A stretch of DNA of 61,917 bases, filler included, from Dugesia japonica (Eukaryota), in the NCBI GenBank assembly GCA_001938525.1. It is 5 parts of 5 records of this genome, joined end to end, with 100 filler letters (N's around TTAATTAATTAA, not from the genome) between each part and the next. Parts side by side here need not be neighbours in the genome. Positions count along the whole stretch, not along the records: positions 1 to 13,756 come from MQRL01461526.1; 4 more parts are not named here. One strand, 5' to 3'. A program made the position numbers and the translations under genes. Positions within the stretch are counted from its first letter, which is position 1. Every line of letters begins with the position of its first letter. Positions 1-36,626 of this stretch are shown piece after piece. The notes under the pieces were generated by a model. The model was not told where the DNA came from and made no database searches. It worked only from the letters and a program-made list of their open reading frames with translations.

Positions 1-371
1 CTCTCGTAACGATTCTCGTTGGATGCTTTTCTCTATCAACGTTAAGTAATCATAAGTGATTGTAAACAGTGAAAGCATGCTTTGCTCATGTGCATTTTAT
101 TCAATGGCACCGTAATAGGACTTGTACAGTGACATATTTTACATTGCAAGACTTAGATTCCCTTGATTGCATGTACTCCGATTGACGTCTGTTGCTTTGC
201 TTGTTTTCCATGTTATCATCATTATTTGCTGTCTGGACCTAATCGCGTATCAATTCTCTTCATTGATTAATCTCGTTTTGAAACTAACCCTTTTAGTCTT
301 TTTAATTTTTGGTTTGACCTCTACGTCACTGTCCTCCGATTTTGGCTTGACCTTAACTCATCTCACTCTTT

Positions 372-1744
372 CTACAGTCTCGACGTCGCTTTCTTTATCA
401 TTGTCGTCTTACATCTCGATACATGAACAATACTTGGCTTCTTGAGTGNCTTTCCCACTTCCTTTACTTTTAGATTTGTTGCAGTTGTCTCTAACACTAA
501 ATAAGGTCCTTCGTTTGGTCGTTTTAATTTATCTGTGGTTCCAATTTCAATTGTTGGGATATTAATTAATACCATATCACCCCTTTTAAACGTATGGGGC
601 TTGTATCTCGATCATACAATTCCTTATAGCTCTCTTGAATAAACTTTGCATTTAACTCCGCTAATCGCCATATTTCTTGCATTCTCTCTTTCATGCCGGT
701 AACATAATCATCCTCGTCCATGTACTGTGATATCGGTGGCTGATGCTCCAAATCTATTGGGATATTACATTATCTACCATACATTAATTTAAAAGGTGAC
801 GCTTTTGTCACGGGATGTTCTACCATCCGATAGGCAAATAAACATAAATTCAAATGTTTTTCCCAATCTCGCTGTGATTTCGTCGCATAACTCGATAACA
901 TTCTAGTCAATGTCTGATTAAATCGTTCCGTCATTCCGTCCGTTTGTGGATGATACGCTGATGTCCGTACTTTGTGAATATTAAAATAACTCTTCACTTC
1001 CTTCATCAATTCACTCATGAAATTCTTTCCTTGATCTGTTAATATCTTTTTCGGTGGTCCGTATTGACTGAATAATTTATCCACTAATATTCGAGCGATT
1101 GTCAACGCTTTTTTATCTTTTAATGCAAATGCCTCGGGAAATTTTGATAAATAATCCATTACTGTCAAGATATACGCTTTTCCATTATCCGTTGGTGGGA
1201 ATGGTCCGATTATGTCCATTGTAATTATATCCATTGGTGGCGCTGGCACTGGTATTGGTTGTAACGGAACTTTAAATTTCTTTCCAGTTCCTTTTCTTGC
1301 NGCACAAATCTCGCATTTACTAATCCAATCTTTCATACATGTCGTAATATGAGGCCAATAATATTTTGCTCGTAATTTTGATTCAGTTTTCTTTGCTGAC
1401 ACATGACCTCCTAGAATTCCATTATGGTACTGCTCAAGTATTTTTGCTCGTCTACATTTTGGTATTACTAACAACAGTTGATCACCTTCCTTCATCATTA
1501 ACCACTCATTTATCACGGTATATCTACCACCTCGTTTCTTTAAGTGTTCCTTCATCACTTTACTCAAGTCAAAGTGAGATATATACTCTAGAATTATTTT
1601 CACTTCCTCATCCTCATCCTGATCCTTTTTTAAGCCGGTAAAATCTTTATTCTCTGCCAATATCATACATAAAGATCGTATGCCTCGATTCATTAATTGC
1701 TGTAAGTCTATCCATACACCTCTGGTTGCTTTCTTTTCTACCAC
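372..1744 (-). pseudogene. Integrase with GPY/F module
   Basis: HNGILGGH...CEIC; MDIIGP; LTDQGKNF; AYHPQTDGMTERFN; EGPYLV...VHVSRCK. Confidence 0.95.
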
Positions 1745-1774
1745 TTCCTCTGGTTCGTCTGTAAATTTTGCTCT

Positions 1775-3150
1775 TTACATATAATCTGCATTTAAATTTG
1801 CTTTTCCANTTTTGTATTTGACCAGCGGTGCATATTCTTGTAGCTTCATTGCCCATCTGGCTATTCTATTTGCTTGTAATGGCTTTTGCCCTATCATTGT
1901 TATCGACTGATGATCTGTATAGATTACTAATGGATGTCTAAGTATTAACTTATTAAAATGTTTTACAGCTTTTACTATTGCCAAAATTTCTCGTTCAGTG
2001 GTGCTATAATTCTTTTCGAACCCTTAAAATGTTTTACTAAAATATGCGATCACTCTTTCTCGTCCTTCTTCATCTAATTGACTCAATACTGCACCCATTG
2101 CATAACCGCTTGCATTCGTTGCCAGAATAAATGGTTTCCTAAAGTCTGGTTGTACCAATATCGGGGCCGTCATCAACTTTTCCCGAATTGTTTCAAATGC
2201 TTTTTGATGCTCCTCTGTCCAAATGAATTTTACGTCTTGTTTAACTAGCGATTGGATTGGTCTCACGATTGTCGCAAATCCTTTGATAAATTTTCGATAA
2301 TAATTCGCCATACCTAGTAATACTTGAATGTCGTTCACGTTTTTCGGCACAGGTAAATTCTTGATTTTCTCAATATTCGTTGGATCTAGTTGTTTTCCTT
2401 TGTCTGATATTAGATGCCCCAAATATGTCACTTGATTTTTCGTTCATTCACACTTCGTAGGTTTCACTCATAGTTTCCATTCTCTAATTCGTAAAAATAC
2501 ATTTCTCAAATCTTTCAAATGTTCCTCAAACGTGACTGAAAATATAAACAAATCGTCTATATATAACATACACTGTTGTATGTCATGTGTCACAAAGTTC
2601 ATGCATCGCTCAGTCCAAACGGCATTCGAACAAATATATATATAAATCTTTTCCTGCTGAGAATGCAGTTTTCTCTTTATCTGCTTCCTCTTTTTCGATT
2701 GTCTGCCCACGCAAAAATATCTCTGAATTCCTCCAATAGTTGTAATAATTTAGCTTTTTTTGCTGCTGATAGAATTGTTGAATCCACTTTAAGCGACCGA
2801 TCTACTTCTTCTGAGTTTGTCGGTAACTCGATTTCCATTCGTTTCGCCATTGCTCCTTTTAATTTCTCATAATCATTATTTTCCACATTATCCACTTCTG
2901 CCTCTTCGTCTTCCAAAGGAGTCAATACTCCGATTTTTGAATTTGGGTATATCGCAATATCTTCTTCTGTCATATTCAGTACGTTGACTGGCACTTTTCC
3001 TTCGTCAGAAACACTTTTACTATTTCCCTCGCTGCTGGCAATTTATATCGCTTTGAGAATCCTTCATGTAGTTCAAAAATCATATCCTCTTAATTTGCTT
3101 GGGTTTTTGCAATGCAAAATACTTGACTCCTCCTTGGTATCACCAATTTT
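1775..3150 (-). pseudogene. pol: Pol: PR-RT linker, RT (N-terminal part deleted near 2705) and RNase H
   Basis: IPRRSQV...VPVNVLN linker; KEKTAF...RMPFGL; MLYIDDLFIFS; YLGHLIS; LGMANYYRKFI; FILATNASGYAMGAVLSQ; NYSTTERE; IYTDHQ; GKANLNAD. Confidence 0.92.
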
Positions 3151-3239
3151 TCGTTTGTATATACTTCATTATCCTTCATATATAAATTTTCTCTGGAATT
3201 CGATATTTTCAATGTGGTCATATCCAAAACTACATTTTT

Positions 3240-3515
3240 CATCAATAATGGAATTAGATCCGTTCCCAATATACAATCCTCACTCATATTCATTACTGTC
3301 ATCTCATGCAATACTGTTCTCCACTGATACTCAACTTCACATCGTAATATGCCATACACTTCTGGCTGCCATCCATCCGCTAAAAATATTTATAATTTAT
3401 TCTGTATAATATAGGTCGATGATATAAGATTATAATTTAATACTGATATTGTTGCTCCGGTATCCAACAACGCTGATAATATCCTCCCATCGATTTTTAG
3501 ATCTATAAGTATTCG
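3240..3515 (-). pseudogene. Retropepsin aspartic protease 2
   Basis: LKIDGRILSALLDTGATISVL...*IFLADG...DCILGTD; DTG at 3464-3456. Confidence 0.85.
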
Positions 3516-3617
3516 ATTTCCAGTCTCAGAATAGTTATAACACACATAATCCTTCTTCTTCGTTCGAGGAATTTTAACTGTATTTCCGATTTCTGGTTTG
3601 AGNTCGACTCGTCTCCG

Positions 3618-3845
3618 ACAATCTCTTGATAAATGCCCCATTAAGCCACACACATAACATCGATTCAACTTTTCACATCTCATTATGGAATGCTTCCTTT
3701 TCCCGCAAGTTTTAAAATGTCTACCGTTACTGTGACATTCTTTAGTTGTATGGTTTGGTCGTTGACAATTTATACACCAAGTTGGGTTATTTCCCACTTT
3801 CCAACAATGACTTGATAGATGACCTCGCTTATCGCAATGTACACA
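3618..3845 (-). other. Second nucleocapsid-like cluster of four CCHC knuckles (one degenerate)
   Basis: CVHCDKRGHLSSHC, CINCQRPNHTTKEC, (F)KTCGKRKHSIMRC, CYVCGLMGHLSRDC. Confidence 0.85.
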
Positions 3846-3919
3846 ATTTGTCTGAGTTCTTTTTAATTTACTTGCATTCGGTTGTTGGCACAAATTCAAA
3901 TCTAATTTCCTATCAGGAA

Positions 3920-4190
3920 ATAGTTTTCCCATCATATCCAATCCCACAATACAATCAAAAACTAAATTCTGCATTACTTGCATAGGATGCATAAATCGCA
4001 CATTTCCGCACTGAATTCTACAATCTAATTCACCCACTGTATTTACGGTTTGTCCGGTTACCGTTAGCATTTGGATTCCTTCTCTACGCATTCTAGCTTT
4101 ATCTACTTCATACAACACTCGTTCATCGATGNTTGATCTACACGCTCCGGTATCGATCATACAATCTATTTCTCTACCGTTAATTATCAA
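3920..4190 (-). pseudogene. Retropepsin aspartic protease 1
   Basis: IINGREIDCMIDTGACRS...DCIVGLD; DTG at 4154-4146. Confidence 0.85.
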
Positions 4191-4519
4191 TTTTTTAATA
4201 ACACTCTACCACCTGGCATTGTCATTGGCGCAAGGCTTCTGGTATCCTTGTCTTTGATCTCTTCGCTATCAGATATTATACTAAAATTGGTATCTTCGGG
4301 TGGTGCCGTTCTGATAATTTCGGTATCCGTTATCCCACAAGATTTCTTTTTAGCCTCATGCTCTGCACGAACTCATCGTTTGAGTTCCTCGAAGTCGTGC
4401 TATCTGCGTATTTGTTGCAATTCATCATTTGGGTAGTAAATTTACTCTCGATTCCCTGCTTCACAACTTGATTGCCATAACTGCTTCCATGTTATGACTA
4501 TTGTTGAATGACTATTGAG

Positions 4520-6390
4520 AACAACTGATTTAGCCCACGCAGGGAACAATCCCATAATCATTGTCTATGACATCTTCCTTTCCTTTTTGTATAAATTGAA
4601 ACACGCTAATAATTGAATCAGTAATACTTTAATTATTTGCACTATAAAGATTATTCCCAATAATCATGCCATTGCTTGTCCGAAAACTATAAATTAACCC
4701 CACATCTTCTTCATTACATTTGCTGCTGCTTGTTGAAAGTGATCTGGTGATAATAACAATTCATAATTCGGTCTCTTTTCTGACGTAAATGCTCCTCCAG
4801 CGACATACACAATGTTAGATAAAATTTGCATTCGTTTGACAGGAAATAACATGTGCTCTCTGGTCCTCTCCAGATCCTCCAATTTGTAGATATCACCTTC
4901 TGCTACATTTATTGGATTAAAAGTCCGTCCCATCTTCAGTTTTAATGCTGAGAAATTTCTCACAAAGGTATCTGCAGGTAATCTCTCCGGAAAACGTATT
5001 CATTTATTGTTAGCCATTTTAAAGTAGGGTCCGAATAAATTAGAACAGTTCAGTTTGTTCGGCACGAATCCTTTTGGTGATATTACTCTTGTAATAGGTT
5101 GTACATACCCTTTTTCTTCCCAATAATTGATTTTCATCTCATTATAGAAAGTTTTCTCTCTGGATAAAATTGCTTCCACCCTCCTATATCGATATATGAA
5201 CATAACATCTCCAACAATTCGCCCGAATTGGCCTTCTTCTAATGGTAACACTGGGGTTACATTGTCGGGGTTTGTTATCGCTGTTGCTAATTTTGTCCGT
5301 AATATTTTGCGATTTAACAAACAGTCATTATAGATCAAATCATGATACATTCGCTCCGTAGATTGCTGCGCTAGGTGAAACAGAGTGTCCACCTTATTAT
5401 TCAGATATAAATAAAACTTAGTATCTTGAGGCATAACTCCATCTCTCGACTTTACCAGTCTCTGCTTTGATACAAAGATTCTATTGTAATTTGTTTTTAT
5501 GCAATTTCTCCACATTTGGCCTCGGATTTCTTACGGATTAATCTAATCATGTCATTCGCATCGATTGCCATTAATACGGTTGGTGTATCAGACCACAATA
5601 GTGATTCCTCCTTTGTTTTCATTTCCACGTTTACTTTTCCGACGGCTGGCATTCTCTCCTCTTTAACTGAGTCAACAATTTTTTTTCCGCAATACTCATC
5701 GAACAAAACCTCTCTAAGAAAGGACATCGTACATTCCTGATGATTGACCTGATATACTAAAGTTGACACTCCTGTATTACACGAATTATCTGAGGCTAAA
5801 CACATTTAATACATCTTCATCTTTTTGGTCGTTTTATCAAATAAGGCATCAAATTCTTTTAGTTCGGCTCTATAACTTTCTATGGCCACGAATCCAGTCG
5901 CATAGCCTAAAGGGCTAGTGTATTTCCCTTGTAGACAAGTTCCTGTTGCATCCGAAATTTATCCTGCTGCGAATAGGCGGGTTTGTACTATTTGACCTCC
6001 TTTGGCATTAATTATTTTTCCTTTGCCCACTGGTATTTTACCGGTTGTAATTCCAGATTCGCATTGTTGTCTTGTGAGGAGAACAGTTATTACTTCCATA
6101 CCTGGGGTTATGACTGCCGAATAACTACTTCCTCCACACCAATATACAAATACTTGCATTGTTACTTTAAATTCCCTTATTTTTTTCTTGTAATAATCTG
6201 ATTCTTGGTACACAAGATAACTCATCGATTTTTGTACATTTTCTAACTTTTCTGGGTTTGCTTCTGGATATTCCCCTGCATCGATTAATGAATACACTGT
6301 TTCTCCGATATTCATATTGGTTCTAATATCGCTACTAATTGTTTACTTTCCATTGACAAAATTGTACTTCCTATCCATAGTTTTAAATCC
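4520..6390 (-). pseudogene. env: Envelope glycoprotein, chuvirus G / herpes gB-like class III fusogen type
   Basis: Colinear motifs: YSLIDAGE(Y), VYWCGGSSYSAV, LTRQQC...TG, AG...GTCLQGKYTSPLG, CLASDNSC, YLNNKVD...MYHDLIYNDCLLNRKIL, GRIVGDVMFIY, YVQPITRVI, CSNLFGPYF. A TM segment MWG*FIVFGQAMA*LLGIIFIVQIIKVLL follows at about 4700-4600. Several expected Cys appear as Y or F. Confidence 0.8.
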
Positions 6391-6399
6391 GGATACATC

Positions 6400-9300
6400 T
6401 CTAGCAATACCTGGTGTATTCGTTTCTCGGTCAATAACGTGTGTGGTTCTAATTTCTCCATTGTTTCCGTTGATAATTCGACCATTTGTTCATTTCTTGT
6501 TGGTTTTCGCCTCGTTGTACCACTTGCTGTGGCTCCTTTTTGTTGACCTCTTGGTTTTTTATCCATCCACGTCTCCGCATCACGCATTACTCATTGATGT
6601 GTCTCATTATCGGTGGTATCATCTGTATTATCCGTGGTCGTTTTCACTTCATCAAAAATTGCGGCAGGTGGTATTATTTCGTCTGCAATTTCGTCCAATC
6701 TAACTGATATATCATCGTCGTCTTGATCCAAATCCACTTGTGTCGGATTAAATCTTCTTGACTTCTTTGATTTCATTGGTATTTCTGACTCTGACGTTGT
6801 TACTGGTTTCATTTGGATTATTTGAATCTCTTCATCATCTATATCATCTTCAAGATCTAAAGGTTGTTCGACTATTTCCTCTTCTGTGGTATTCTCCGTT
6901 GTTGACTCCTTGATTGGCGACTTTCTCGGTCGTCCTCTTGATTTGGCAACTACTTCACTCGTGTTACCTGACTTCATTGATTGTACAAATGATGTTATCG
7001 TGGTCTGACTTGTTCCTAGTCCCGATTGCAATTTATTTTTAATCTCCTTGGCGGGTAATTTTCTCCTGATCAATCGTTTACTACCTTTCGGTTTGATATA
7101 CAGTTTATTTTCTACCTTTTGTCGGATATCCAACGTTCCAATGATATTGTTATTCAATAATTCCCGATTATTCAATAGTAGTACATATGGCGGCTTGAAT
7201 GGTATTTTGGATTTCATCTGTTCTACTGTCTCGTAAGCCAAGTTCGAGATTCTCNTTTCATGACCATCTGGTTCTACGATTCTGAAGCTAAATCTAAGTG
7301 GTAATACTTCATCTTGTTCGCATTTTCTCCATCTTGATATCAGCAGTTTGAATTGTTTTGGTCTCCATTTGCATTTTTCTTTACATCTGGATATTTCGTA
7401 AGTCAATGATCTCAACTCCTCAATTGACAAATCGCTCTGCAATAATTGAACCGTTATATGCTCCACACTGGTTTTGTTTATACTTTTCTCTTGAATTTTT
7501 TCTATAAATTGATCTACCATATCGGCAGAATCTCCACTACACTTTTTCGATTTACCGGTCATTATCGCTACCATTTCTTGTGATCTACTCAGCTCTTGAT
7601 TTGATTTGTATTGTCGATGTAACATTGGTCTCTGCTGTATTACCGCTTTCGTTTCTCGATTTGATAATTTAATTTCATCATTATGCAGTTGCAATCCCCA
7701 TGGCAATTTTGGATTGATATTATCAGCATAATATCGTATTGTCTTTGCACACAAATTTTCTCTGATTGATTTTAACGTATATGGGTCTCTCTCATTTTCT
7801 CCATTTGCAAAAATATAGACATTCATCATATGGCCTGTCTATATGCCTGATCACTTTACCGGGTACTCACCATGATCCTCTGTGATCTCTCCTCCGCAAT
7901 AAACTACAATATCCTCTCGTTTAGTAATTGGTGTATTCTCTTTTCCCTTTGCTGTTTGTTTATTCAAATGTTTGATAATTTTCTTTANTAATTTATCCCA
8001 GCTTGTCGTCGTTTTAATATCAAACTCTTTACTTGATTCATCCGGAAAATACACTGTTACTTGCACATCTTGTCTTGTTATGCCGTCTGCATGATTTATT
8101 ATTAACGTATACATAAGCGTGTACAACGCTTTTCCTCCTATCATACACAACTGGTTCAATCTGTTTATTATCTCTTGAATATTCAACTCAGTCATTTGAC
8201 TGCAGTTCTTATAAATGGTTAACGCCATTTTTGCGATAGTTCGCTTCAAACTTTTCCACAGTTCGCTTTCGTTTTCGACTTTGGCTATTCGTTCAATTTC
8301 CTCGTTTGTTACGATTCTCAAATATTCTATTTTATCTATTTCGTTTACATACATATTTTCCATTTTAGTTCTAATTCGTTTAATTGATTGTAATTTAAAC
8401 TTTTTCGGTTTTCCATCATCCAATTCCAACGTTAATTCAGTAATCTCTCCTGGACTCAATAGTAATTCAATCACGTGTTGATCCCCTTTATTCAGTTTGT
8501 CTCTTTGTATAATCATATAATCACACACAATCCGATATTTTTCAAACGTTTTCTCTAAAGGTAATTTACTCAATATTGCTCTCAATTTACCTACTCGGGT
8601 GGTTTGAAATTTCTCAACTATTTTCGTCTGCATGGTCATGCACAAATTATCATCAATGGTAGGATAGTGGATTTTTACCCCAAAATCCGATCCAACTGTC
8701 GTCGTTACTATCATCTCCTGATACTCTTTAATTAATTCAGACCAGTTTCTCCGATGTTCCCATAATATATCATAATGATAGTGCGCATCCAAACTAAGTT
8801 CAGCATTCTCCAATACGTTCGTTTCGGAATTAATTCCTTCCTCTAGTGTAATACACACGTATTTATTTATTGCAGCTAAATTATGATAGTAATCTTCATT
8901 GCTGTTCTCGTTGGCAGTAGCTGATGTTTCGTTCGGCTCATTCACACTCCCTCCTCCCACATTTCTTGATTGTTTACTACTCTTTTTACCTCTATTTATT
9001 ATTTTACTCAAAAATGATCTCATCATAAAAACTCGGCTGGCCCTGGCTGCTTTCTCGAAAACTGTTCATGATTAGTTTCTGTAGTAGTTTTAATTACCAC
9101 GCTCGGTATTTCAGCTTTTGGTAATTCACTTGACTGGATTGCCAGTGGTGCCCTCTTTTCTGACAAAGGCGCAAGATACTTTATTTGACATCTATTCAAC
9201 GAAATCATTATATCTAAATGTTCTAAATTAATCATTATGCTCTAAATTGAGGGCAAATTAGTTCGTTATATAAAGACATTCTCCAACTCTCTAACAACGT

Positions 9301-10780
9301 AACGCATTTACATCATTGATGCTAACTACTGACACTGGTGCACAAACAATATATTTGCATATGGGTTTTGCCCATTCAACCTCCTCTAACGCATTGAGTA
9401 AATCTTTTACCGTCATTCCTTTCAGTTTTAACACAAGTGGGATGTTATATTTTGTGGCAACTGGTACTTTCTTCAAAACCTGATCCATCGTAATGTATGC
9501 GGTTCTATCTTCATCCGGTCTCCATGCTTTGATTTTATAATCCCCCGCGGACGTAATTACCAACAACTCTTTCTCATATTCCAGAATTAATGGTCTTCAT
9601 TTTCGATTCGTCATCGTGTCAATATGACCTGGCTCTGCTAGTTCCACCAAATGATTCATTATTTTCTAATAAGTCTTCCTGGTTAATTCATCTTTCAATA
9701 ATTGAGCATCTTTTATGACTGTTTCTACATAATCATTCACTCGGGTTTTGTATCTAATCGGTGCTTTCAATCTCACGGGATCGCTTTTGGTTATCATGCC
9801 AATTTGAGTCCTGATATTTTCTGTTTTTGCTGCTCCTCTTGTTTGTCGGGTCATTGGCTGTCTAATTTCTTTTACCACATCTACCAGAAATCCTTGCTAC
9901 AATTTGCTTATTCCCTTGGTTGTAGTTGTTGACTCCGTCCGTACTAGCACCATTTATTTGTGATATTTCTTATCAAATGATTGTACTATTTGCTCGGTCG
10001 TTCTGAAGTCAAAATAATATCACAATGATTGTTTAATGCGATGCATTTCTACTAAATCGATTAAATTTATTGTTGTTTTACCTAGCCAGACTCCATATTC
10101 CGATACATGTCCTTTACCATCATCTTGTTCTATGACTCTGGTTCGAGAACACAAAATATACTCTCCGATAGGCTATGGCCATGTCATTTCATTTACTGCT
10201 TGTAATAATCCATTCACCGTAGTATCCTTCAACACAATTTTCCAAGGTATCTCTTGATATTTCAATTCAGTTGAATCTTCATCTATGGCTGGCTCGTAAG
10301 CATTAATACTATAATCGTCAGGTTTTGTATGACTACGAATTTCCGATTCATATTCTTGCGCTTGAGGAAATCACAATTCACTGGTGCACGCATTCAGTTT
10401 ACCTGTTTCCATTAACTCCAACACATGATTCATCATCGCCCAGTATGCCTCTCGATAAACTACTGTCTTGAAAGTTTGTATCATTGTGACTTTATCTTCT
10501 ACCTGTCTCGTTATCACTGCTCGTTTGGCTGCTAATTTCGCCAATAGTTCTACCTCCATTGACTGAGCTCTCATCATATTTATTCTTCCTTGATTATTCT
10601 CTCACTTTTGCATTCTCTCTTTTGTCACTTGCTGTTCCTCCAATTGTAATTGCAAATATTCCTGCTATTGTTTCAACTTGTCAAATACTCGCTGCTCTGT
10701 TTCATCTTGCCTTCGCCTATCTTGTTGCATTAGATTCACTTGTTGCTGATTTTAGTTTCAATTATTTTTTATCTGGTTCT
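6400..10780 (-). pseudogene. Accessory polyprotein region: coiled coil, five ubiquitin-like repeats, PIP-like motif, AT-hook, acidic tail
   Basis: ORFs starting at 10577, 9878, 9566, 9026, 7829 and 6587 share one frame and are mostly separated by point stops. A beta-grasp-like pattern recurs at about 10319, 9542, 8687, 8069 and 7292. QTTITSFV at 7007-6984; KSRGRPRK at 6944-6921. Confidence 0.65.
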
Positions 10781-10788
10781 TTAATCTA

Positions 10789-12210
10789 TCATTTTTCCAA
10801 TGGTCTGGTTGTTTCTTGATTTATTATTGTAGTTGGTATTAGAATTCCCATAGCAGATCTTTGGTTATTCTGTAAACAATTTATTCTCGTATGAACCAGT
10901 TTATTGCATGTATAACACACTGGTGATTTTGTGATGAAGCAATTTTCCGCTTTATGTCCTGGTTTCTGACAATTTGTACATATCATTGCCGATCTGCAAT
11001 CTCTAGCATAATGACCGAGTTTACCACAGTTATAACAGGTACTTCCTTGGGGTTGCTTCCACGCTTCTTGTCTATTTCCTCCAATTGACCTTGAATTATT
11101 ATTTGATTGTCGTGCTGGCGGTCTATTCTGACCTAGTGACAGTCCTCTTAATGATGGTTGAGTTCTGGCAGGTATAAAATCTGCAATTTTTGGTTCACTT
11201 TTCTCTTCCTCTTTTTGCTCTTCAATTTTAAAAATACTGGCTTGTTTTTTATTCATTTCCACTTAATGTGCTACCATCGCCGCGTTTATTGCCATGTCCA
11301 CCGTCGTGGGCTGAGATAAATTTACCCATTTTTTCACTTCCGCATTTCTAAGTCCTTTAATAAAAATACCGAGCACTGTTGGATCATCCAACTTGTCTTT
11401 CATCGCCACTTTGCCGAGTTTATGTAATTCTGTTGCGTATGCCTAATAGGCTTCATCTCTTAGTTGTCTTCGACCCACGAACTCTTGAATTTCTTGTCCT
11501 TGCAACATTAATGGCTTGAAATTTTCTAACAACACTTCTTTAGCTTTTTCCCATGTATCAACGGGATCTTTACGACTATTTATCTTATCCCAGTAGATAG
11601 TTTTAGCTGAATCCTTCAAATATAGAGGTAATCGATCTGCTGTTCTCTTGTCACTCTATTGATACGCTTGTATATGTATACCATAGGCTGCAATAAAATC
11701 ATTCAATTTCTCAGGTTGTCCGTTAAAATAATCTCCATTAAATTCTGTTTTCCACTCCGAAATCCGTTTCGATTTCTGTCCACTTATACTCTTGTCATCA
11801 TCTGACAATTTTGAATTCTCCTCGTTTTCTTTTTCTTTATCTGTGATTGGCATGGTATCGGTATCACTTGATTCCGAAATTAATTCCGAGTATTGACGAA
11901 TTCTACTTGACGCTCTTGTCGTGGGTATACTATCAGTAACTGATTTAGATTTGCTTAAACTTTCCAGATCAATGTCTTCTAAAGAATTGGCTCTTGAGTG
12001 ATTTAGTTCGGTTATGGTATCAAATTTTCCTTGTACGTCGTCGTTAGACGGGAACGAATTAGGTGATTTTGATGCTGGAATTGATAGAGATTGGTCGAAT
12101 TGTCGAGACGGTCTGTTGTATGAGACCGATCGCTTTACTTTAGCTGGAGTGTGTTTTTTAATTACAAACGATCTTCTATGTTCAGTACTTTCTTTAAAAT
12201 TGTATCAGGA
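10789..12210 (-). pseudogene. gag: Gag: capsid domain plus three CCHC zinc knuckles
   Basis: Reading through stops gives FNGQPEKLNDFIAAY...LPLYLKDSAKTIY...TWEKAKEVLLENF...AYATELHKLG...IFIKGL. Knuckles CYNCGKLGHYARDC, CTNCQKPGHKAENC and CYTCNKLVHTRINC lie at 11037-10876. The 5' limit is approximate. Confidence 0.9.
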
Positions 12211-12820
12211 TCCTTGATTATCTATGATTGTTTATTTGGTTGATTTGCAGATTGATTGGTTTATCTAGAATTTTGAAATATTGGAATGTGGATTGTTTTG
12301 GTTTCTGCAATTAAATAATATGGCCCTTCGGCTTCTGCGCGCATTCAAATATTATTATCGCATTTATTAATTGACTACTTTTAACTACTTTTAACTACCG
12401 ATTGATACTCCTAATTACCAATTACTACACTACGATAAATTATCATACGTTATTTCTATTACTTTAGCAGAACATTTTCGTAATTTACTTCTATCACTCA
12501 TTCATTTATTATACATAAGCAGCAAGTTTTTTTGACTATGTCATTAGCATCTTCCGTTAAAATAATACTGTCAATAATTACTGGTCTGCAAATATTTAAG
12601 ATCGAACATCATTGATTTCAACTAACAATCATATAATTTAGCAGCCTAAAGTACATTTATACTTAACTGTCTCGTGATCATTAACCCATCGCTAACAAAG
12701 GTTCTCCAGATGTGCCTTCATAACATTACCCTATTAATTCATTTTGTTTCCTTACCATTGATTCCTCCGTTGAGCTCTCTTTACTTATTAATACATTTTA
12801 ATCACTGTTCCTAAAACATT

Positions 12821-13045
12821 TCCACCTGTTCCTGGCAATTTGTTTTCCGGACAAATTTCCATATTAATCAATACTTCATTTATCTCCATTTCGTTTCCCA
12901 TATTAGAAAAATCTGGCTTGTTCCTGGCAATTTATCTCCCAAATAACTTTTATGCTAATTGACAATCAATTTATTTTGACTCCATAGCTCACGTTGGGAC
13001 AAATCCACCTGCCCCTGGTAGTTTATCCTCCGGAACAAATTACCA
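12821..13045. repeat. Three imperfect repeats in the element's 5' leader, period about 91-92 nt
   Basis: TCCACCTGTTCCTGGCAATTTG, GGCTTGTTCCTGGCAATTTATC and TCCACCTGCCCCTGGTAGTTTATC, with CCTGG cores at 12831, 12923 and 13014. Confidence 0.7.
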
Positions 13046-13291
13046 GTAATTAACTCACTACTCCAATATTTGCTTCAATATTTAATTCGGTCACCATTTT
13101 TCCTCCAAATAAATTTCAACCTTTTCCACCCTAGTTTTTTTGCTTTGAACTCTCTCCGATGCAGCCGGTAGTCTATTTTTTCAGCTCCAGCTGGGCGACA
13201 ATTTCGATCCTCAATTAACAATAATACCTTGATATCTCAATGCTTGAGTCAGTTGACAGTCTATTTTAATTAAGCTTCAACCGCTCGCTAA

Positions 13292-13756
13292 TGTGAAGGT
13301 TCTCAGTCAGAATCCCATGATCCAGCTGATGTGTAACTACGACGCTACCCGCGATNGCATTACCAAAATAATTTTCCAAAAATAAACTACACTACTGATG
13401 CCACACTTGGGGCTAACTATTGTAGCATCTCGTCAACACTGAGTCCTCTGATCGCAAGATACCATGGACAATTTGCGGCCTTGTCCTGCAAATCTTAAAC
13501 TCTAAAATCTTAAACTCTGTAGAGCTACGGGTAGTTAGCTGTAGGGAATGAATGTCAAGGCGCACTCACGCCAACCGAAAGCCATGAGTGGTCAGCTTAA
13601 TAGATGCGATGCTCGTTGCCGGCTCCTTCGTTTAGTTCCCTGGAATTCCTGAGTTTATCTCGCCTGGACTAAACTCTATTCGCCCGGCGTGGAAGTCAGA
13701 CAAAGTATCCAACTTCCGAGATCGGTACTCCTTATCCGAAGCGTCGAAGCTCGAAG
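13292..13756 (-). repeat. Putative partial 5' LTR with possible degenerate PBS at about 13275-13290
   Basis: GC-richer non-coding block upstream of gag. The minus strand reads ...CCTTCACA-T-TAGCGAGCGG, which is TGGCGAG-like. No second LTR is in the window to confirm. Confidence 0.3.
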
Positions 13757-13856
13757 NNNNNNNNNNNNNNNNNNNNNNNNNNNNNNNNNNNNNNNNNNNN
13801 TTAATTAATTAANNNNNNNNNNNNNNNNNNNNNNNNNNNNNNNNNNNNNNNNNNNN
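13757..13856. other. Artificial contig-joining spacer (also at 24479-24578, 36527-36626, 48010-48109)
   Basis: Identical N44-TTAATTAATTAA-N44 structure occurs four times; the core has stops in all six frames. Confidence 0.95.
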
Positions 13857-20194: not shown

Positions 20195-20830
20195 AATGAA
20201 AATTATCAGATGGAATAGGATCAGGACAGCGTTTTCCACAAAGCAGGGACAATATTTTGTTTTAATCGGATGCCGTTTGTAATAGTGGCAGCTTCTGGAA
20301 CTTCTCCGGAGATGATGGTGGATGTAATAAAAGGAGTACAAGGAGTCATTGTATACCTGGATGACATATTGGTGTTTTCGAAATTGATGGAGAAACATTA
20401 TGAGATTATAGCAAAAATTTTAGACAGAATTCTAGAAACAGGTCTGAGAATCAATTCGTAAAAGTGCTCTTTCATGAAACGAGAAATAAAATTTTATAAT
20501 TACAATTATTGTGAGAATAATTGTTGGACTTAACCATTGATGCCATTTGAGATTTCATTAAAATAAAGAAAAAGCTTCGATCAAAATAAAATGTATTAAT
20601 AAAAAAGTTCAAATTTCAAATAGTCTTCTTCAGAAACATATAAAATGAAGAGATAAAATGTTTAGGTCACATAATAAGTGAAAGAGGTATTCAAACAGAT
20701 CCAGTAAAAGTAGAAGCAATTAAATCTTTTGGAGAGCCAAAATGTGTGAAGAAACTACGTAGTTTCCTTGGTATATGCAACTACTATAGGAAGTTTATTA
20801 AAGATTATACGATAAAGGCTAGAAAACTGG
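20195..20830 (+). pseudogene. Gypsy RT fragment interrupted by a short insertion
   Basis: TAFSTKQGQY, MPF, VYLDDILVFS, LGHIIS, LRSFLGICNYYRKFI. Confidence 0.85.
20494..20641 (-). mobile_element. Short Penelope-like repeat with degenerate hammerhead (20607-20637)
   Basis: Homologous to 26963-27061, 57905-58113 and 13860-13930; splits the RT frame. Confidence 0.65.
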
Positions 20831-23480
20831 TATTGATAAGGGTTTATCTAAGCTTTCATAGGGTTTTATAATGTTTTTATAATATTTAAGTAAGTTTCAC
20901 AGGGTTTCTCTTGGAATTAATATGATTTGATAGGGTTTAAGGAAACTCAGTAAAGTTTTAATAATTTTGAATATGGTTTTCAAAAGGTTTATTAAGTTTG
21001 ATTTCAAATGATTTATACTTTTGCTAAGTCTTTTATAAATTGAATAAGATTCAATAAAGTGTATAAGGCTTATATAGTTTTATAGGAAGTTTTTGGAATT
21101 TGATAGGGTATTATATGAATTTGAAATGTCTGATTTAGTTTTATACGTTTTTATAAGATTTCCATACAATTTTTATACTACTTTATAAAGACTATCAGAT
21201 TGGATAAAGGTCTAGAAGATTTTAAATAGTTTTAATAGTCTTTTACAAGGTTTCTTTAAGTCTAGATAACATTGATATAGAATGGGTAGGATTTTACAAG
21301 GTTTATATATAATTTCTAAAAGCTATGTTTAATGTGTTATATGCGCTATGATGTTTGGTAAGGTTCACGAAGGTTTTATAGAGATTTAATATGGTTATAA
21401 CCANACTTTGAGAAATTATGAACTAATTTCTTATGCAAAGACACATACATTTCTAAGGTAATACATTAATGTCAATAAGCCATATACATAAGTAAATAAT
21501 AATTTTATATTGTAACAAAAGGTTTATATAATTTCTAACAAAATATGTACTATTTTCATATGTATACACTAATTTTATCAGTATTCAGTTGTTAATACAT
21601 ACAAACGTCATTAAATCATGTGTATACATAATTTCATACAAATATAAACTCGGTTTACATTATAAATATACAACAACTTATGAAAAATTATAGAAATTTA
21701 TCGTTTTCATCAAAATATATAGAAAAGTATCATATAAATATAACCAAATGATATACAAAAAATAGTCTTATTTGATGACTATTGTACAAATTATATTATA
21801 ATAAATCTATTCTTCTTAAACATTTTATACACAAATTTTATTAATCATACATATACACAAACCTTAAGAGGATTAATAAAACACAACAACTTCATACAAA
21901 ATATGTACTATTTCGCGAGTAAACAGTGACTTCATTATTTTATATACAAATTTTAATAAGTGATATACTACTTTCATTAAACCATATATAAATCTTAAAA
22001 AGTTTACATTAACATATATATTAGTTTCATTATAGTTTATACATACTTCATACAATTATACATAAACTCTAATAGGATTACTAAAACACAGCAACTTCAT
22101 TCAAAAAAAAGTACTGATTTCATTAAGTTGTGAAAAAGTCTACATAAATATTATATGTAATTTATCCATTTCATAGAAACATCTACAATAATTTCATACA
22201 AATATACTGAACTTCGAGAAAATATGAACTAATTTCATTATCAGATTTAAAATTAAGCGAAAAATATATACAATTTTTATAACATAAATTTTCATTAATA
22301 TACGTTATCGTTGTTAAATTACATATAAAATTAATAAATCATATACAAACTTTATTAAATTTTAGAAATATACACATTCCATTAAAATATGCAGCAACNN
22401 NNNNNNNNNNNNNNNNNNNNNNNNNNNNNNNNNNNNNNNNNNNNNNNNNNNNNNNNNNNNNNNNNNNNNNNNNNNNNNNNNNNNNNNNNNNNNNNNNNNN
22501 NNNNNNNNTATTTCATAATCACACAACAAATTTTATAAGAATATATACCTGCGTCTTACTTGCTTTATATACAAAACTTTAAAAATTATACTAATCCTAC
22601 AAAATTTGTACTATATTCATGAATATTCAATAATTCCATTTGGATAGATACAAAGTTCAATAATTTACACACAAAGTTCATCAGAATATATGCATAGTTC
22701 ATATAATTATACACAACCTCCAATAGGTTTACTAAAACATGAGTACTTTATACTAAAATATGTAATGATTTCATTAAGTTTTATTCAAATATGCATAAAT
22801 ATTATAATGTGTGACTTGAGTTCTTTATTTTGTTTACATCTGTATCGTAATGGTATTGTATGGATGATTAATCATGTATGTATTACATACAGTTGGGTGA
22901 TTTCATACAAATATAGCCAAATTTCAATATAAAATACATCAATGGATCATACTTAAATAAGTTGCATACATGATTTCACACACCAGATTTTATCCAAACG
23001 TCATTATATAAAATATACAATAATTGTTTTGAGAATTATGCATAATTATATAAGTAATATACACTATTTCTCAAAGATATACACTAAGTTTTGATTTTAA
23101 AGTCTGACTGTAAGCAACTTAATCCAATAAAATATATACTATTTTCATTTACAAATATAATTTCATTAACAATTTCATACACATTGTCCATCAATTTATC
23201 TAAAACATAAACAAATTCCATCAAACATATAAAGATTTCATTATTACATGAGAATTTTCATCACATCATATGCAATTATCAATAAAATATACATTAATAC
23301 TTATATAAAATAATTTTATAATATATTTACAAATTTCTTTAAGACATAAAAGTTTAATATATTTACATAAAACCTCAATATACAAATATTTTTTAAAGAT
23401 ATTTTGATCGAATTTAAAAACGTTTCCCGCCTAAAAATTATAAAAAAAATTTTCATCACGAAAAACATAACATTTTCTAT
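20830..23480. repeat. Degenerate AT-rich low-complexity or satellite-like tract
   Basis: Recurrent AAGGTTTTATA-like motifs, then AATTTCATACAAA-like motifs; no coding signal. Confidence 0.5.
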
Positions 23481-24578
23481 ACCATCTGGTTGTAGCAAAT
23501 CCACAAATCCCCTCTTCCGGGGGGTGGTACAGTGCGCTTTTATCCACCTACCAATATTATTTGCAGCATTATGAAAATATTTTGTATTTTTTATCGCCTT
23601 CTGATCAGTCTTAAATAAGAAATTCTGTTTTGCTTACCGTCTTAGACCGGCCATGACCATGAATTTTGAAAATTTATTAGTTTTTTTNNNNNNNNNNNNN
23701 NNNNNNNNNNNNNNNNNNNNNNNNNNNNNNNNNNNNNNNNNNNNNNNNNNNNNNNNNNNNNNNNNNNNNNNNNNNNNNNNNNNNNNNNNNNNNNNNNNNN
23801 NNNNNNNAATTAATTAACTTGATATTGGTCGATAATAATACTAATTTGTCGCATGAATGCCTTTTGTTTTATTTTTAATTTTTGCTAAACAAAAATTTGA
23901 TTTGAGATTACTTTTTTCAAATGTAATTATTTAAACTATTAATTGTGTTTTAAATCAAAGAAAAATACCGATGAGAGAGAATAATAAATCATTGTACGAT
24001 AAAAGAATGACAAGTGATGCTAGTTTAAGATACTTCTAAAAATGATTTTGTAAAAATTTTTATTTTTTTTTTGATAAATTTTATAATTATTTTTATTTTA
24101 TTTATTATATAAATCAATTAATTATTGATTGTTGAAAATTTCCAATAGAAATAAATTGATTTTTAAATCAGAGTCAATTAATTCACTTCAACATCAATTA
24201 TATGAAATCTTATTTATTTTAAAAAATGAATTTTAATTTTAATTTTGATCTGTAAGAAATTTTTGTCAGAAATTCTTTGAGAAATGATTAAATAGATGAA
24301 AATTTATTAATTGTTTTTAAGGGTATCCATAATGAGAAATCAGTCAGATTTATTTGAACATTAGTATGCTATGCATTCCCTGTAAAAATCAAGAAACAAT
24401 AAATTAAAAACAAAAAAATATTATTTTAATTATTCCTTTGAAAATTTTTTTTCTTTTTTTATCGAAATAAATTTCTTTNNNNNNNNNNNNNNNNNNNNNN
24501 NNNNNNNNNNNNNNNNNNNNNNTTAATTAATTAANNNNNNNNNNNNNNNNNNNNNNNNNNNNNNNNNNNNNNNNNNNN

Positions 24579-24994: not shown

Positions 24995-27680
24995 CCCCCT
25001 TTCTAAGAAATTTTTTGATCTTCTTTACGTTTCTTTCAAGACTTTTACCGTTTGTATCTTCCAGAATATAGCGTCTGTCGTAAACTTTCATCTTGATCTT
25101 ATAGGGTCCTTCATAACGATCTTGGTTCTTGTTTCTTGTTTCAGCTTCCACTAAGACCTCATCACCGATCTCGAATTGTCTTTTAGTTAATATTTTCTAC
25201 TCTTGTTCTTTGTGCACTCATTGATTATTTGTTTTATACCATTTTTCTCTTCCCAAATACGATTTCAGCAGGGCTTTTCCGGATAGTTTTCTGTTTTGAA
25301 CGTTTAAGTCAAATTCTATCTCTGGCAATACATCTACCCAATCTGAGGTTTTCCTTTCTTTAAGTGCTGCTTTAATCATATCCTTCATATTTCTTAACTG
25401 TCTCTCGATTTGCTCATTTTTTGTTATGATGATATGGACTCAGCTGCAAATTCTTTCATTGATTTAAACTCAAAAGCTCTTCCACAATCAACTCAAATTT
25501 CTCTCGGACACCCGAACTTTAATATCCACTTCTTTAATATTGATTTCCGTATCGTATCTTCATCTTGTCTTGTCATTGCTATCAAGACTACATACTTACT
25601 GCATTGGTCTATTATACCGAGAACATATTTTTTCGACTTCTTGTCTCCAGCAGTGGTCGCAACACATCTATAAATAACAGTTCAAACATTTCGGCTGGCT
25701 GCGTCTTTTTCGTTTCTTCCTTCGTTTTTGTTGTCAACACTTNNNNNNNNNNNNNNNTTATACAGCTTCAGACAACCTCTTGTACTTTAGTCCACAAAGG
25801 TTTCGCGTTATATTTATGCTTCATATGCGCTGCTACTTTGTCTGCTTCAGCATGACACAAAAAATGGTGTATCCTCATTTTAACCTCTTCTACTTTATCA
25901 TCAGGTGTCCATGTTCCTTCATCATTCTCAACAAAATTGCATTACTTTTCTTGAATATTTACTGTATTTAACATCCTTGTTTTTAAATTTTCACTTTTGG
26001 GATCTTTATGTGACATCAGACATTGTGCATTCATTTATTGACAACATATCCTTTTTTATATTTCCATTTTATATCTAAGCTGCTCAAATAATTAATCCGC
26101 ATTTGAAACTGTGATGTAATCGGCTTTTTGGTATTTAGCATAAAAGTGATGGCTTTATGGTCTGTTCTGAGGAAAAATCTTTTTCCATATAAGTAATGTT
26201 TGAAATGAATACAAAAGTAGTAAATAATGAGCAATTCTTTCCGTGTAGNNNNNNNNNNNNNNNNNNNNNNNNNNNNNNNNNNNNNNNNNNNNNNNNNNAT
26301 CCTTTCTCATGACTCGTCATTGCGTGTGACCCATATGCAATTACTCTTTCTTGCCCATTGTTGTCATTTTGAATACTGCCGCAAACGTATCGAAACTCGC
26401 ATCCATGTCCAAAATAAATCTTCTATTTATATCTGGAAAACATAATATTNNNNNNNNNNNNNNNNNNNNNNNNNNNNNNNNAAAAACTTCTTTTAATTCA
26501 TTCGTCCATTCAATTTTCTTGTTACTTGGCTCACTACACAGTTGTTCCAGCAATCTGGCTTTTTTCGAATAATTTTTAAAAAACTTGCGATAGTTATTAC
26601 AAATTCCCAAAAAGCTTCTCATTTTCTTAACGCATTTTGTTTTACCAAAGTTCTTAATTGCATCTATTTAAGTTGGATCTGTTTTGACNNNNNNNNNNNN
26701 NNNNNNNNNNNNNNNNNNNNNNNNNNNNNNNNNNNNNNNNNNNNNNNNNNNNNNNNNNNNNNNNNNNNNNNNNNNNNNNNNNNNTGTTAATACTTTATTG
26801 CTAATTTCATAGTGTTGCTTCTTTGTTTCGGTAAATATGAGAATATCCTCTATATAAATCATGCTCTTTTTATTTTTCCGATTACTTTATTTATCATTTC
26901 TTGGAACGTACCTGGTGCTGCTGTAATTTCAATAGGCATTCTATTAAAACAAGAATACTCTTAAGATAAGGCTTCGATCGAAGCCTTATCTTATTTATGA
27001 AATCTCAAATCCGATCAATGGTTAAGTCCAACAATTATTCTCACAATAATTGTAATTATAAAAGAATACTCTTGTTTGGTTGAAAACCCCGTCTTTTCTT
27101 GAGAATCTTCACTGGGTTCCACTTGATAGTATGCATTTCCCAGGTCTATTGGGCTAAAATACTGCGTACCTTTCAAAGTATCCAGCATTTTGGCCACATT
27201 TGGCATAGGAAAAGCCTGTCTTTCAGTTATTGCATTGAGCAGTCTAAAGTATAAGCATAATTGTATATCATTATTTTTTCTTTTTCTAAACACAGATTAA
27301 TGGTGTATTTCATTGAGAATAACAATTCCGGATGATACCATTATCATATAGATTCTTGATGGCCTCTTCAATCTTCTCCTTTAGATTCATTTGTTAGCAA
27401 TACGGTTTTCTGTTGATTAGACTTTTTTTAGTGATTATTTGATGCTTCGTTAAGTGTGTGCATCCAATGTCCCATTTATCCACCATAAATACATCTTCAT
27501 TATTCTGAATAATCACAGTCCATCAATGATTTTTATTAATTTCTAGAATCTCTATTGCATGTCTCAATAGTTCACTCGTCTGTATCTGCCTTCCAAATTT
27601 TGCTTCGATGTTGCAAACAAATTTTTCCCGATGATTATTGATGTCTACTCTGCACGGTGGTTTGAGATAAGGCTAAGTCA
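24995..27680 (-). mobile_element. Small Gypsy family element: RT-RH-IN with PPT
   Basis: AFPMPN, IDLGNAYYQVE, SFLGICNNYRKF, ILDMDASF, RTDHKA, YEGPY. PPT AGAAAGGGGGA at about 25005-24995, followed by an AT-rich presumptive LTR. Confidence 0.9.
26963..27061 (+). mobile_element. 99-bp Penelope-like insertion with 12-bp TSD and terminal palindrome
   Basis: AAGAATACTCTT at 26951-26962 and 27062-27073; perfect 32-bp palindrome at 26962-26993. Confidence 0.8.
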
Positions 27681-34860: not shown

Positions 34861-35719
34861 TTATGCTCTATTTCCACCATTACCACATCGTTTACACCTC
34901 ACTTCTTGACATAACCGTCTTATATGGCCAACCTTTCCACAACCAAAACATTTTGTTGGTTTTTTATTTGGACAATCTCGACTTATATGTACTGTTTTAT
35001 GACAAGTCCAGCACTCTACCACTGGTGGCCTCGGGCAATTTGCTTTACTATGACTGATTTTATGACATAACAAACATTCGATATTTTGTTTTTCCTTTCC
35101 TCGATCTACATATCTATTTATTGTATGATTTACAAGTTTCTGATAATCTTGACTTATAACTCTCGCAAAGTTCAAACTACATTAACGTGATCTCCGTTTT
35201 TCTCTACTCGATCTACTAACACTATTGTATCTTCAATTTTTTCTATATTTTTCGTTTCTGTAAAGTTACTTCTTCTTCAACTTTTTTGTTATCTGAACAG
35301 TATAATCTTTTTACTAAAATCTTACATTTTTAAAATAAACTTGAATCTCTTCATTTCTACGTCTGTATTTAATCAAATTTTGAAAGTCATTGATAACATC
35401 TTATTCTTTTTTAAATGCCATACGTAAATGAGTCTGGAAACCTTCACACTTTTTTCAACGTCTTTACATATTCTTCCAATAAACCTTCCTCTAACAAACA
35501 AGAGACTAATCTCTCACGTTGTTTCACCTGGGTGATGTTTTTAGCTTCAAAATACAATTCACACCGCTTGATGAATTTCTCAATATCATCTCCTCTGCAG
35601 AACATATTAAGCAATAATCTCTCTGTAATAGAATCGGTATTTACCGCTGCCACCATTTTAGGTAAATCTTCAATTGGTAATTCATTTTCCAAATCAAGAC
35701 TAATATTTTGAGACATCAT
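34861..35719 (-). pseudogene. gag: Gag of the small Gypsy element
   Basis: FCRGDDIEKFIKRCELYF; CLLCHKISHSKANC, CWTCHKTVHISRDC, CFGCGKVGHIRRLC. Confidence 0.85.
35643..35655 (-). promoter_or_regulatory. Primer-binding site TGGTGGCAGCGGT (tRNA-Leu type)
   Basis: Immediately inside the 5' LTR; complementary to a tRNA-Leu 3' end ...ACCGCUGCCACCA. Confidence 0.8.
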
Positions 35720-35847: not shown

Positions 35848-36626
35848 GTTTTAGTTTAGATTTGGAGAAAAGGTTGGAAAAAAATTGAGTAATGATATTT
35901 TATACTAGAAACCGAACAAAAAAATTAGATAGTCACATTAATTTGAATTGTAATTACCAATCCTCTGAAAATGAGTGGACAAAAAAAATTAAAACATTTA
36001 CCATCTCTTTAATTTTTTTAATTAATCCGATAAATTATTTGGAATAACCTCTTTATGATTAAATCTTAATATATACAAAGAATATTTAATTGCATTTAAA
36101 AAAAATAATTATTTATGAAAATTTCAAGAAAAACTATACTTACTTTGTCAACTTTGAATTCTGTCAAAATATGTAAATTTGAACGACCTTCCATTTTCCT
36201 TAAACATTCAGAATAGGTGCTTCTTCGTTTGTAAAGATCATAGTTCACTGAAAATAGTTGATTAAATAAACATTAACATCATCATCACATTATATTTACT
36301 TATCTCTGTGTACAATCATATCCTATCTATTTTCTATTTTGTAATGAAATGAAGATTTTGTTACAGGAAACTATTTTATAATGATCCCAAACCAAAATCG
36401 TTGTAATATTTTTAGTTTTCAATGTTTTTCTTTGCTATTAGTTAATATATTTTACTTGGCCTACTTATCCTTGGTTTATTTATATCTAATCGAGAAATCT
36501 TGGGTGTTTATACTCTTCGAATATTTNNNNNNNNNNNNNNNNNNNNNNNNNNNNNNNNNNNNNNNNNNNNTTAATTAATTAANNNNNNNNNNNNNNNNNN
36601 NNNNNNNNNNNNNNNNNNNNNNNNNN

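What the first reader, a model, noticed from the sequence alone, without database searches (positions are those of the whole stretch)
3240..4190. Two complete aspartic proteases flanking a second four-knuckle nucleocapsid
PR1 (IDTGA...IVGLD), four CCHC knuckles and the DTG of PR2 (LDTGA...ILGTD) lie in one frame. The element has seven knuckles in two clusters about 7 kb apart. If env splits the polyprotein across a membrane, a second NC could recruit Pol to genomic RNA, and tandem PRs could form a single-chain pseudo-dimer (inference).
Basis: partly seen in the sequence, partly recalled or inferred. Interest (0 to 1): 0.72.

Follow-up and report, generated by a model that had tools for sequence, protein, structure and literature searches.

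The report
Retroelement polyprotein with two proteases
A decayed virus-like jumping gene encodes two protein-cutting enzymes with a second set of RNA-binding zinc knuckles between them, and many relatives also carry extra cutters, apparently because their single long protein is threaded through a membrane.

Summary
PR1, four knuckles and PR2 lie in one minus-strand frame (3237-4196), but knuckle 3 lacks its first Cys and PR2 has an in-frame stop. The host element is a decayed Ty3/Gypsy element of the known GAG-ENV-POL type with a gB-like env. Extra proteases are not peculiar to this copy: 11 of 16 env-bearing relatives have 2-4 retropepsin domains in one ORF (8 of 11 among those found by RT-integrase alone), usually Env-TM-PR-linker-PR-RT-RH-IN-(PR)-TM. 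CCHC knuckles between proteases were seen only here (0 of 11 linkers; C2H2 fingers in 4, ankyrin in 1). Best reading: the membrane-threaded polyprotein uses extra proteases to free Pol from membrane anchors, and this lineage added a Pol-side RNA tether. That mechanism is inferred. The single-chain pseudo-dimer could not be modelled and is disfavoured by three-protease relatives and variable, folded linkers. Protease phylogeny is unresolved, and no second copy with PR-NC-PR was found. My paper searches found no report of multi-protease retroelement polyproteins, but key papers were unreadable. Verdict: new variant of a known kind.

The parts
3915..4196 (-). PR1, retropepsin-type aspartic protease, 165 codons after the Env transmembrane segment
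   Evidence: Pfam PF13975/PF00077; local HMM bounds and TM gap; fold
3618..3845 (-). Second knuckle cluster (NC2): three perfect CCHC knuckles and one lacking its first Cys, inside a 136-aa basic linker (21% K+R)
3237..3506 (-). PR2, retropepsin next to the pol enzymes; in-frame stop at 3390-3392
2710..3236 (-). Post-protease region homologous to the region after the RT-proximal protease of relatives (dUTPase-like by position; label taken from PMC6431247, no Pfam hit here); frame change near 3000
   Evidence: tblastn; no Pfam hit
324..2699 (-). RT (N-terminal part missing), RNase H, integrase; decayed
   Evidence: Pfam; tblastn 42-45% identity to the closest env-bearing relatives
4500..6321 (-). 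Env-like glycoprotein (Monjiviricetes fusion family PF24664), frame change near 5500, TM at about 4693-4640, cytosolic tail to about 4206
6345..10790 (-). Accessory coding region between gag and env, about 1,480 codons in one frame with 23 stops, no confident domain
10795..12204 (-). Gag: Retrotrans_gag capsid domain and first knuckle cluster (NC1, three perfect CCHC at 10876-11037)
   Evidence: Pfam PF03732 and PF00098

Best explanation
PR1-NC2-PR2 is a native part of the polyprotein of a GAG-ENV-POL Ty3/Gypsy element (my confidence in this part is about 0.8). In this lineage the one long polyprotein crosses a membrane: Gag and accessory domains in the cytosol, a signal segment, Env in the lumen, a TM, then Pol back in the cytosol, often followed by a second membrane protein. 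Shown: domain order, the TM after Env, and extra proteases right behind the Env TM and, in relatives, right before the C-terminal TM. Inferred: signal peptidase separates Gag from Env-Pol; the env-proximal protease (PR1) works as an ordinary homodimer, favoured by Env clustering, and frees Pol from the Env tail; PR2 does the usual maturation of Pol and Gag; NC2, which stays on the Pol side of the membrane, binds genomic RNA and so brings Pol to the Gag shell, as RNA bridges Gag and Pol in foamy viruses. NC2 is a lineage-specific filling of a variable linker that other relatives fill with C2H2 fingers, ankyrin repeats or nothing recognisable.
For: One frame with 1 stop in 331 codons, against 0.75-1.55 stops per 100 codons elsewhere in the element; uniform base composition across domains. 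PR1 sits 165 aa after the Env TM; the first protease sits 121-241 aa after it in 14 of 14 relatives measured. 11 of 16 env-bearing relatives have 2-4 proteases, 7 of them a third after integrase, followed by a TM in 6 of the 7. Of 27 non-env long polyproteins only P0024 clearly has two, and it falls inside the env clade. In relatives the accessory proteases (behind Env, after integrase) form a sequence class separable from RT-proximal ones in 33 of 34 leave-family-out tests, and nearly all keep D[TS]G, which fits a distinct, maintained job. Env and RT-IN of the window both group with the same relatives (RT-IN 13-row clade 95/95). Signal-like stretch before Env in 13 of 14 relatives. Precedents: RNA-bridged Pol packaging and RNA-driven protease dimerisation in foamy virus (PMC6669543, passages); an extra knuckle in pol of rotifer Juno elements (PMC5408684, passages).
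Against: No signal-like stretch is visible before Env in this copy (best 15-residue hydropathy 0.95 against 1.72-3.08 in relatives), so the membrane split is not shown here. 5 of 16 env-bearing relatives manage with one protease, and 7 of 11 two-protease relatives have no zinc finger in the linker, so neither part is required by the topology. The window's proteases cannot be assigned to the accessory or RT-proximal class (PR1 70.7 vs 66.4 bits; PR2 45.9 vs 49.2), and the RT-IN tree places the window outside the 11-row clade that holds most multi-protease relatives (96/94), so the duplication may be independent. CCHC between proteases is seen in this one dead copy only. The frame changes between the Env tail and PR1. 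The relatives fall into about six families, not 16 independent cases. No activity, cleavage or RNA-binding data.
Confidence: 0.5

Rival explanations
1. PR1 and PR2 fold on each other as a single-chain pseudo-dimer, like the two lobes of pepsin, with NC2 looped out, so the enzyme is active without needing a second polyprotein.
For: Both domains keep DTG and GxD. Engineered tethered HIV-1 protease dimers of 203 aa exist and are among the PDB sequence hits, so head-to-tail tethering is possible. A 136-aa linker is long enough (inference).
Against: 7 relatives have three proteases, the third about 1,100 aa away beyond integrase, and one has four. Linkers run 46-391 aa and hold folded domains. Within-element identity of the two pre-RT proteases is 14-35%, and the env-proximal ones resemble the post-integrase ones more than their neighbours. 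PR1 and PR2 are 28% identical.
Confidence: 0.15
2. NC2-PR2 is the ordinary NC-PR junction of a canonical Gypsy element, captured behind the native protease PR1 by template switching or a nested insertion.
For: Knuckles followed by protease is the canonical order (61 of 150 hits). NC2 is no closer to the element's own Gag knuckles than to unrelated clusters, with no DNA similarity. PR2 is the more diverged protease. No relative has CCHC there.
Against: PR2 scores higher with the lineage profile than with a profile of 61 canonical proteases (56.3 vs 51.0 bits, a small margin) and its 8 best pairwise hits are all lineage proteases. PR2 runs on into a region homologous to relatives' post-protease domain in single alignments. 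No stop, frame break or composition step at either side of NC2. Env and RT-IN have the same relatives. The canonical four-knuckle element at 35076 gives no DNA match to this element. An old capture that was then kept would merge with the best explanation.
Confidence: 0.17
3. The extra protease and knuckles are tolerated, redundant duplications (or peculiar to this copy or its assembly) with no special role; giant polyproteins of this lineage simply collect domains.
For: Single-protease relatives exist (5 of 16). Some duplications look local or repeated: two of P0003's four proteases pair at 98/88; P0158's first protease is degenerate. The assembly is a draft with 28 N runs.
Against: PR1 and PR2 are only 28% identical with no DNA-level similarity, so not a recent or assembly duplication, yet both kept their catalytic motifs. 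An unrelated 56-aa record (P0007) is 52% identical to PR1 and not to PR2, so the PR1 type exists elsewhere. Accessory proteases keep D[TS]G across families.
Confidence: 0.18

Closest known systems
GAG-ENV-POL errantiviruses with HSV/gB-type env (Nematoda, Bryozoa, Platyhelminthes; Chary & Hayashi, PMC13524379; sections 5 part 1, 14, 22, passages and supplementary file 1 rows read; Sacco et al. 2022 seen only as cited there)
   Same: Ty3/Gypsy pol, env between gag and pol, chuvirus-like class of glycoprotein.
   Different: The paper mentions 'protease' once, in a generic figure legend, and never zinc knuckles; no extra proteases or second NC are described in the text I could read. Figures and the GitHub sequences were not visible.
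Burro / GYPSM1 giant planarian elements (Arkhipova & Yushenova, PMC6431247, section 7 read)
   Same: Gag with three CCHC knuckles, long accessory region, env between gag and pol, a dUTPase-like domain between PR and RT.
   Different: The review names one protease and accessory MATH, BIR, BCL2, Ubi/SUMO and ankyrin domains; none was confidently found here. Burro's internal region is up to 25 kb; the coding span seen here is about 12 kb.
Juno1/Juno2 rotifer LTR elements (PMC5408684, passages read)
   Same: An extra zinc knuckle inside pol, upstream of RT.
   Different: One knuckle, placed after the dUTPase; one protease; no env between gag and pol.
Foamy viruses (PMC6669543, passages read)
   Same: Works like: Pol not joined to Gag, packaged through genomic RNA, with RNA-promoted protease dimerisation.
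   Different: Retroviridae; Pol made from its own transcript; no CCHC knuckles (abstract listing); one protease.
Tethered HIV-1 protease dimers (PDB 1lv1, 1g6l, 3n3i and others)
   Same: Two retropepsin domains in one chain.
   Different: Engineered, two near-identical 99-aa units with a few linking residues; here 28% identity and a 136-aa knuckle linker.

Membership tests
Ty3/Gypsy LTR retrotransposons (Metaviridae) | Gag capsid domain and PR-RT-RNase H-integrase in that order | tested here: met
   PF03732; PF13975, PF17919/PF17917, PF17921, PF00665; YIDD at 2563
Ty3/Gypsy LTR retrotransposons (Metaviridae) | Paired LTRs, PBS and target-site duplication | tested here: inconclusive
   No repeat of 12201-13756 elsewhere in the window; the 3' end runs off the window and the 5' side meets an N gap at 13757; PBS not tested
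GAG-ENV-POL gB-type errantiviruses | env placed between gag and pol | tested here: met
   PF24664 at 4500-6321 between gag and PR1
GAG-ENV-POL gB-type errantiviruses | HSV/gB-type (chuvirus-like) glycoprotein with class III fold and conserved cysteine bridges | tested here: inconclusive
   Family match to Monjiviricetes fusion proteins is above cut-off; fold and cysteine pattern not examined
GAG-ENV-POL gB-type errantiviruses | RT falls in one of the published A1-A11 clades; host in Nematoda, Bryozoa or Platyhelminthes | not testable with these tools
   Published sequences not available; host of the window and of the relatives not determined
Burro elements | Gag with two or three CCHC knuckles | tested here: met
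   three knuckles
Burro elements | Single in-frame Gag-Env-Pol ORF | tested here: inconclusive
   This copy has about eight frame changes; relatives are single ORFs of 2,300-4,060 aa
Burro elements | Accessory MATH, BIR, BCL2, Ubi/SUMO or ankyrin domains | tested here: not met
   Only a sub-threshold ubiquitin-fold-like RA_2 hit, E 0.02; HHpred-level search not available; Atlas search not answered
Retropepsins (clan AA, family A2-like) | D[TS]G triad, hydrophobic-hydrophobic-G-x-D motif, about 95-aa fold, for both PR1 and PR2 | tested here: met
   PR2 read with X at its stop
Retropepsins (clan AA, family A2-like) | Proteolytic activity as a dimer | not testable with these tools
   no assay; dimer not modelled
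Pepsin-like single-chain bilobed proteases | Two lobes of one chain forming one active site | tested here: inconclusive
   In the full model PR1 had no alignment cover and did not fold (pTM 0.39)

The most novel reading that the evidence does not exclude
A widespread lineage of enveloped Ty3/Gypsy elements makes one membrane-threaded polyprotein with two to four retropepsins that divide the work, and this family has evolved a second, Pol-linked nucleocapsid so that Pol, cut off from Gag by Env, is packaged through RNA; PR1 and PR2 may even pair in cis with NC2 as an RNA-sensing switch. This would be an assembly route for reverse-transcribing elements distinct from Gag-Pol fusion.
Probability: 0.3. 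Interest if true: 0.82.

Novelty: new variant of a known kind. Interest (0 to 1): 0.6.

Why it matters
LTR retroelements and retroviruses are described with one homodimeric protease and with Pol packaged through Gag (own knowledge; foamy viruses are the known exception). Putting env between gag and pol breaks that link, and how such elements package Pol is not addressed in the papers I read. Extra proteases beside each membrane anchor, and a zinc-finger module on the Pol side, give concrete, testable answers. Intact natural relatives (for example P0154, P0178) allow domain-level tests of specificity and dimer choice. Five paper searches found no report of multi-protease retroelement polyproteins; Sacco 2022 was not held, and Grohme 2018, Repbase reports and the figures of the two main papers were not seen, so priority is uncertain.

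Tried and rejected
Word-indexed search with the PR1-NC2-PR2 protein against 651-2,000 aa proteins: 0 of 2,322 candidates, weak evidence. The phmmer scan gave 273 hits, of which the best 150 were examined: none is a clean PR-CCHC-PR; the one such call (P0012) has RNase H before gag and looks like a gene model joining two elements; P0022 and P0119 are near-identical tandem repeats. Protease tree: unresolved for both window proteases (46 rows); AU tests on 32 of the 46 rows reject neither PR1+PR2 as sisters nor either joining the accessory class, and the free search was itself poor. Whole-polyprotein alignment smeared the query and was discarded. Full PR1-NC2-PR2 model: only PR2 folded, so the pseudo-dimer was not tested; no complex prediction was sent because PR2 is interrupted and any retropepsin pair would tend to pass by likeness. 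Programmed -1 frameshift between Env tail and PR1: an A-rich heptamer precedes the env-frame stops, but the next 63 nt fold no better than shuffles (z -0.85) and the copy has many other frame changes; not supported. Internal duplication of Gag knuckles as source of NC2: no support. Other copies in the window: none. For the architecture count I used 30 of the 73 new hits and dropped 43 named NCBI gene models (41 from one arachnid assembly) that appear to join several elements; these were kept in the canonical protease profile. The careful 35-row RT-IN tree did not finish (quick tree); a 19-row careful tree did. Source names of relatives and Atlas look-alikes of the accessory region stayed unchecked.

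Full report
Observation. The minus strand of 1-12,200 holds one decayed LTR-type element in the order gag, accessory region, env, PR1, knuckles, PR2, RT, RNase H, integrase. PR1 (3915-4196), four knuckles (3618-3845) and PR2 (3237-3506) share one frame. Three knuckles are perfect and the third lacks its first Cys; PR2 has an in-frame stop at 3390-3392. Both proteases cover their Pfam profiles nearly end to end and fold as retropepsins. Three more knuckles lie in gag, 7.0 kb away. Only 33 of 20,000 shuffles give even one knuckle. The copy is dead: about eight frame changes, stops throughout, and the N-terminal part of RT missing.

What the element is. Env matches PF24664. Env between gag and pol is published: GAG-ENV-POL errantiviruses of nematodes, bryozoans and flatworms (PMC13524379, sections read) and the planarian Burro elements (PMC6431247, section 7). 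That part is not new. The host was not determined; the flanks are very AT-rich.

Relatives. Three searches gave 16 env-bearing polyproteins of 2,296-4,057 aa, each one ORF. The closest are 42-45% identical to the window in RT-integrase and 32-39% in the second half of Env. With local protease profiles, 11 of 16 have two to four protease domains and 5 have one. The first two searches used protease-containing queries, so that count is biased. Among the 11 env-bearing hits, found by RT-integrase alone, 8 have two or more. Of 27 long non-env polyproteins, one clearly has two (P0024, an N-truncated member of the env clade), one has two weak calls (P0232) and one is an overlap artefact (P0200). The relatives form about six families, not 16 independent cases. 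The common plan is Gag, accessory domains, signal-like segment, Env, TM, PR-A, linker, PR-B, RT-RH-IN, then in 7 cases PR-C, and usually a further TM-bounded protein. The A-B linker is 46-391 aa and holds C2H2 fingers in 4 of 11, ankyrin repeats in 1, nothing recognised in 6 and CCHC knuckles in 0. So the protease duplication is a lineage trait, while PR-NC-PR itself was seen only in the window. One 56-aa record is 52% identical to PR1 alone.

Origin. In relatives, A and C proteases form a class apart from RT-proximal ones (33 of 34). The window's two cannot be placed. They are 28% identical with no DNA similarity, so the duplication is old. In the RT-IN tree the window lies in a 13-row env clade (95/95) but outside the 11-row clade with most multi-protease elements (96/94); in the Env tree it lies among them, with weaker support (84/97). 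One early duplication with losses and independent duplications both remain open. A nested foreign piece is disfavoured. PR1 sits at the native distance from the Env TM (165 aa; 121-241 in 14 relatives). PR2 leans to the lineage (56.3 vs 51.0 bits; 8 of 8 best hits) and runs into lineage-type sequence. Composition is uniform, and the region has 1 stop in 331 codons. Against this, knuckles-then-protease is the canonical order (61 of 150 hits), NC2 is not derived visibly from the Gag knuckles, and the frame changes just before PR1.

How it most likely works. Shown in relatives: a hydrophobic signal-like stretch before Env (13 of 14) and a TM after it. Inferred from standard membrane-protein biogenesis: Env is lumenal, signal peptidase parts Gag from Env-Pol, and Pol hangs from the Env tail, often anchored again at its C-terminus. 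Extra proteases lie at just these anchors. I therefore read PR1 as a release protease acting as a normal homodimer, PR2 as the maturation protease, and NC2 as an RNA tether that brings Pol to the Gag shell, as RNA does in foamy viruses (PMC6669543, passages). An extra knuckle in pol has a precedent in Juno elements (PMC5408684, passages). Limits: the signal stretch is not visible in this copy (0.95 vs 1.72-3.08); 5 of 16 relatives have one protease; 7 of 11 linkers have no zinc finger; nothing was assayed. Confidence 0.5.

Rivals. Single-chain pseudo-dimer (0.15): possible in principle (tethered HIV-1 dimers) but at odds with three-protease relatives and long folded linkers; my model did not test it. 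Capture of a canonical NC-PR (0.17). Tolerated redundancy or copy-specific feature (0.18).

Novelty. The element is a member of Ty3/Gypsy with the known GAG-ENV-POL order; Burro membership is not met on accessory domains. Five paper searches and term searches in the two versions of the main survey found no mention of multiple proteases or a second NC. Sacco 2022 was not held; Grohme 2018, Repbase reports, figures and bioRxiv supplements were not seen and may bear on this. PMC11410931 (passages) added nothing on domains. Verdict: new variant of a known kind, interest 0.6; 0.82 if the RNA-tether route is real.

Noticed in passing
P0008, P0024, P0152, P0154-P0159, P0178, P0185, P0194 (after integrase); P0160: Most relatives continue in frame past integrase into a TM-bounded membrane protein, often behind a third protease; P0160 carries an immunoglobulin-like domain there. 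The window ends too early to check this copy.
   Followed up: partly
P0158, residues 770-835 and 1959-2532: Ubiquitin-like domain before Env and ankyrin repeats between a degenerate first protease and the RT-proximal protease; this echoes the Burro domain list, so Burro may hide an unreported second protease.
   Followed up: no
P0216: A distant env-bearing element with an SF1 helicase domain and two adjacent proteases whose triads read DCG.
   Followed up: no
P0003: Gag-Env followed by four proteases and no RT in the same ORF.
   Followed up: partly
window 4190-4215 (-): The env frame ends in two stops right after an A-rich heptamer, and PR1 begins in the -1 frame; no stimulatory structure found. 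Programmed frameshift or decay.
   Followed up: partly
window 6345-10790 (-): About 1,480 codons of unexplained accessory sequence, with a coiled-coil-like start and a weak ubiquitin-fold-like hit.
   Followed up: partly
window 20204-20874 (+), 25448-27597 (-), 32206-35172 (-), 48110-49682 (-): Remnants of other, canonical Gypsy elements; the one at 35076-34850 has its own four-knuckle gag cluster.
   Followed up: partly
window 13757-13856, 24479-24578, 36527-36626, 48010-48109: Scaffold joins of two 44-base N runs around a 12-base spacer, a draft-assembly mark; the first cuts the element's 5' flank.
   Followed up: no
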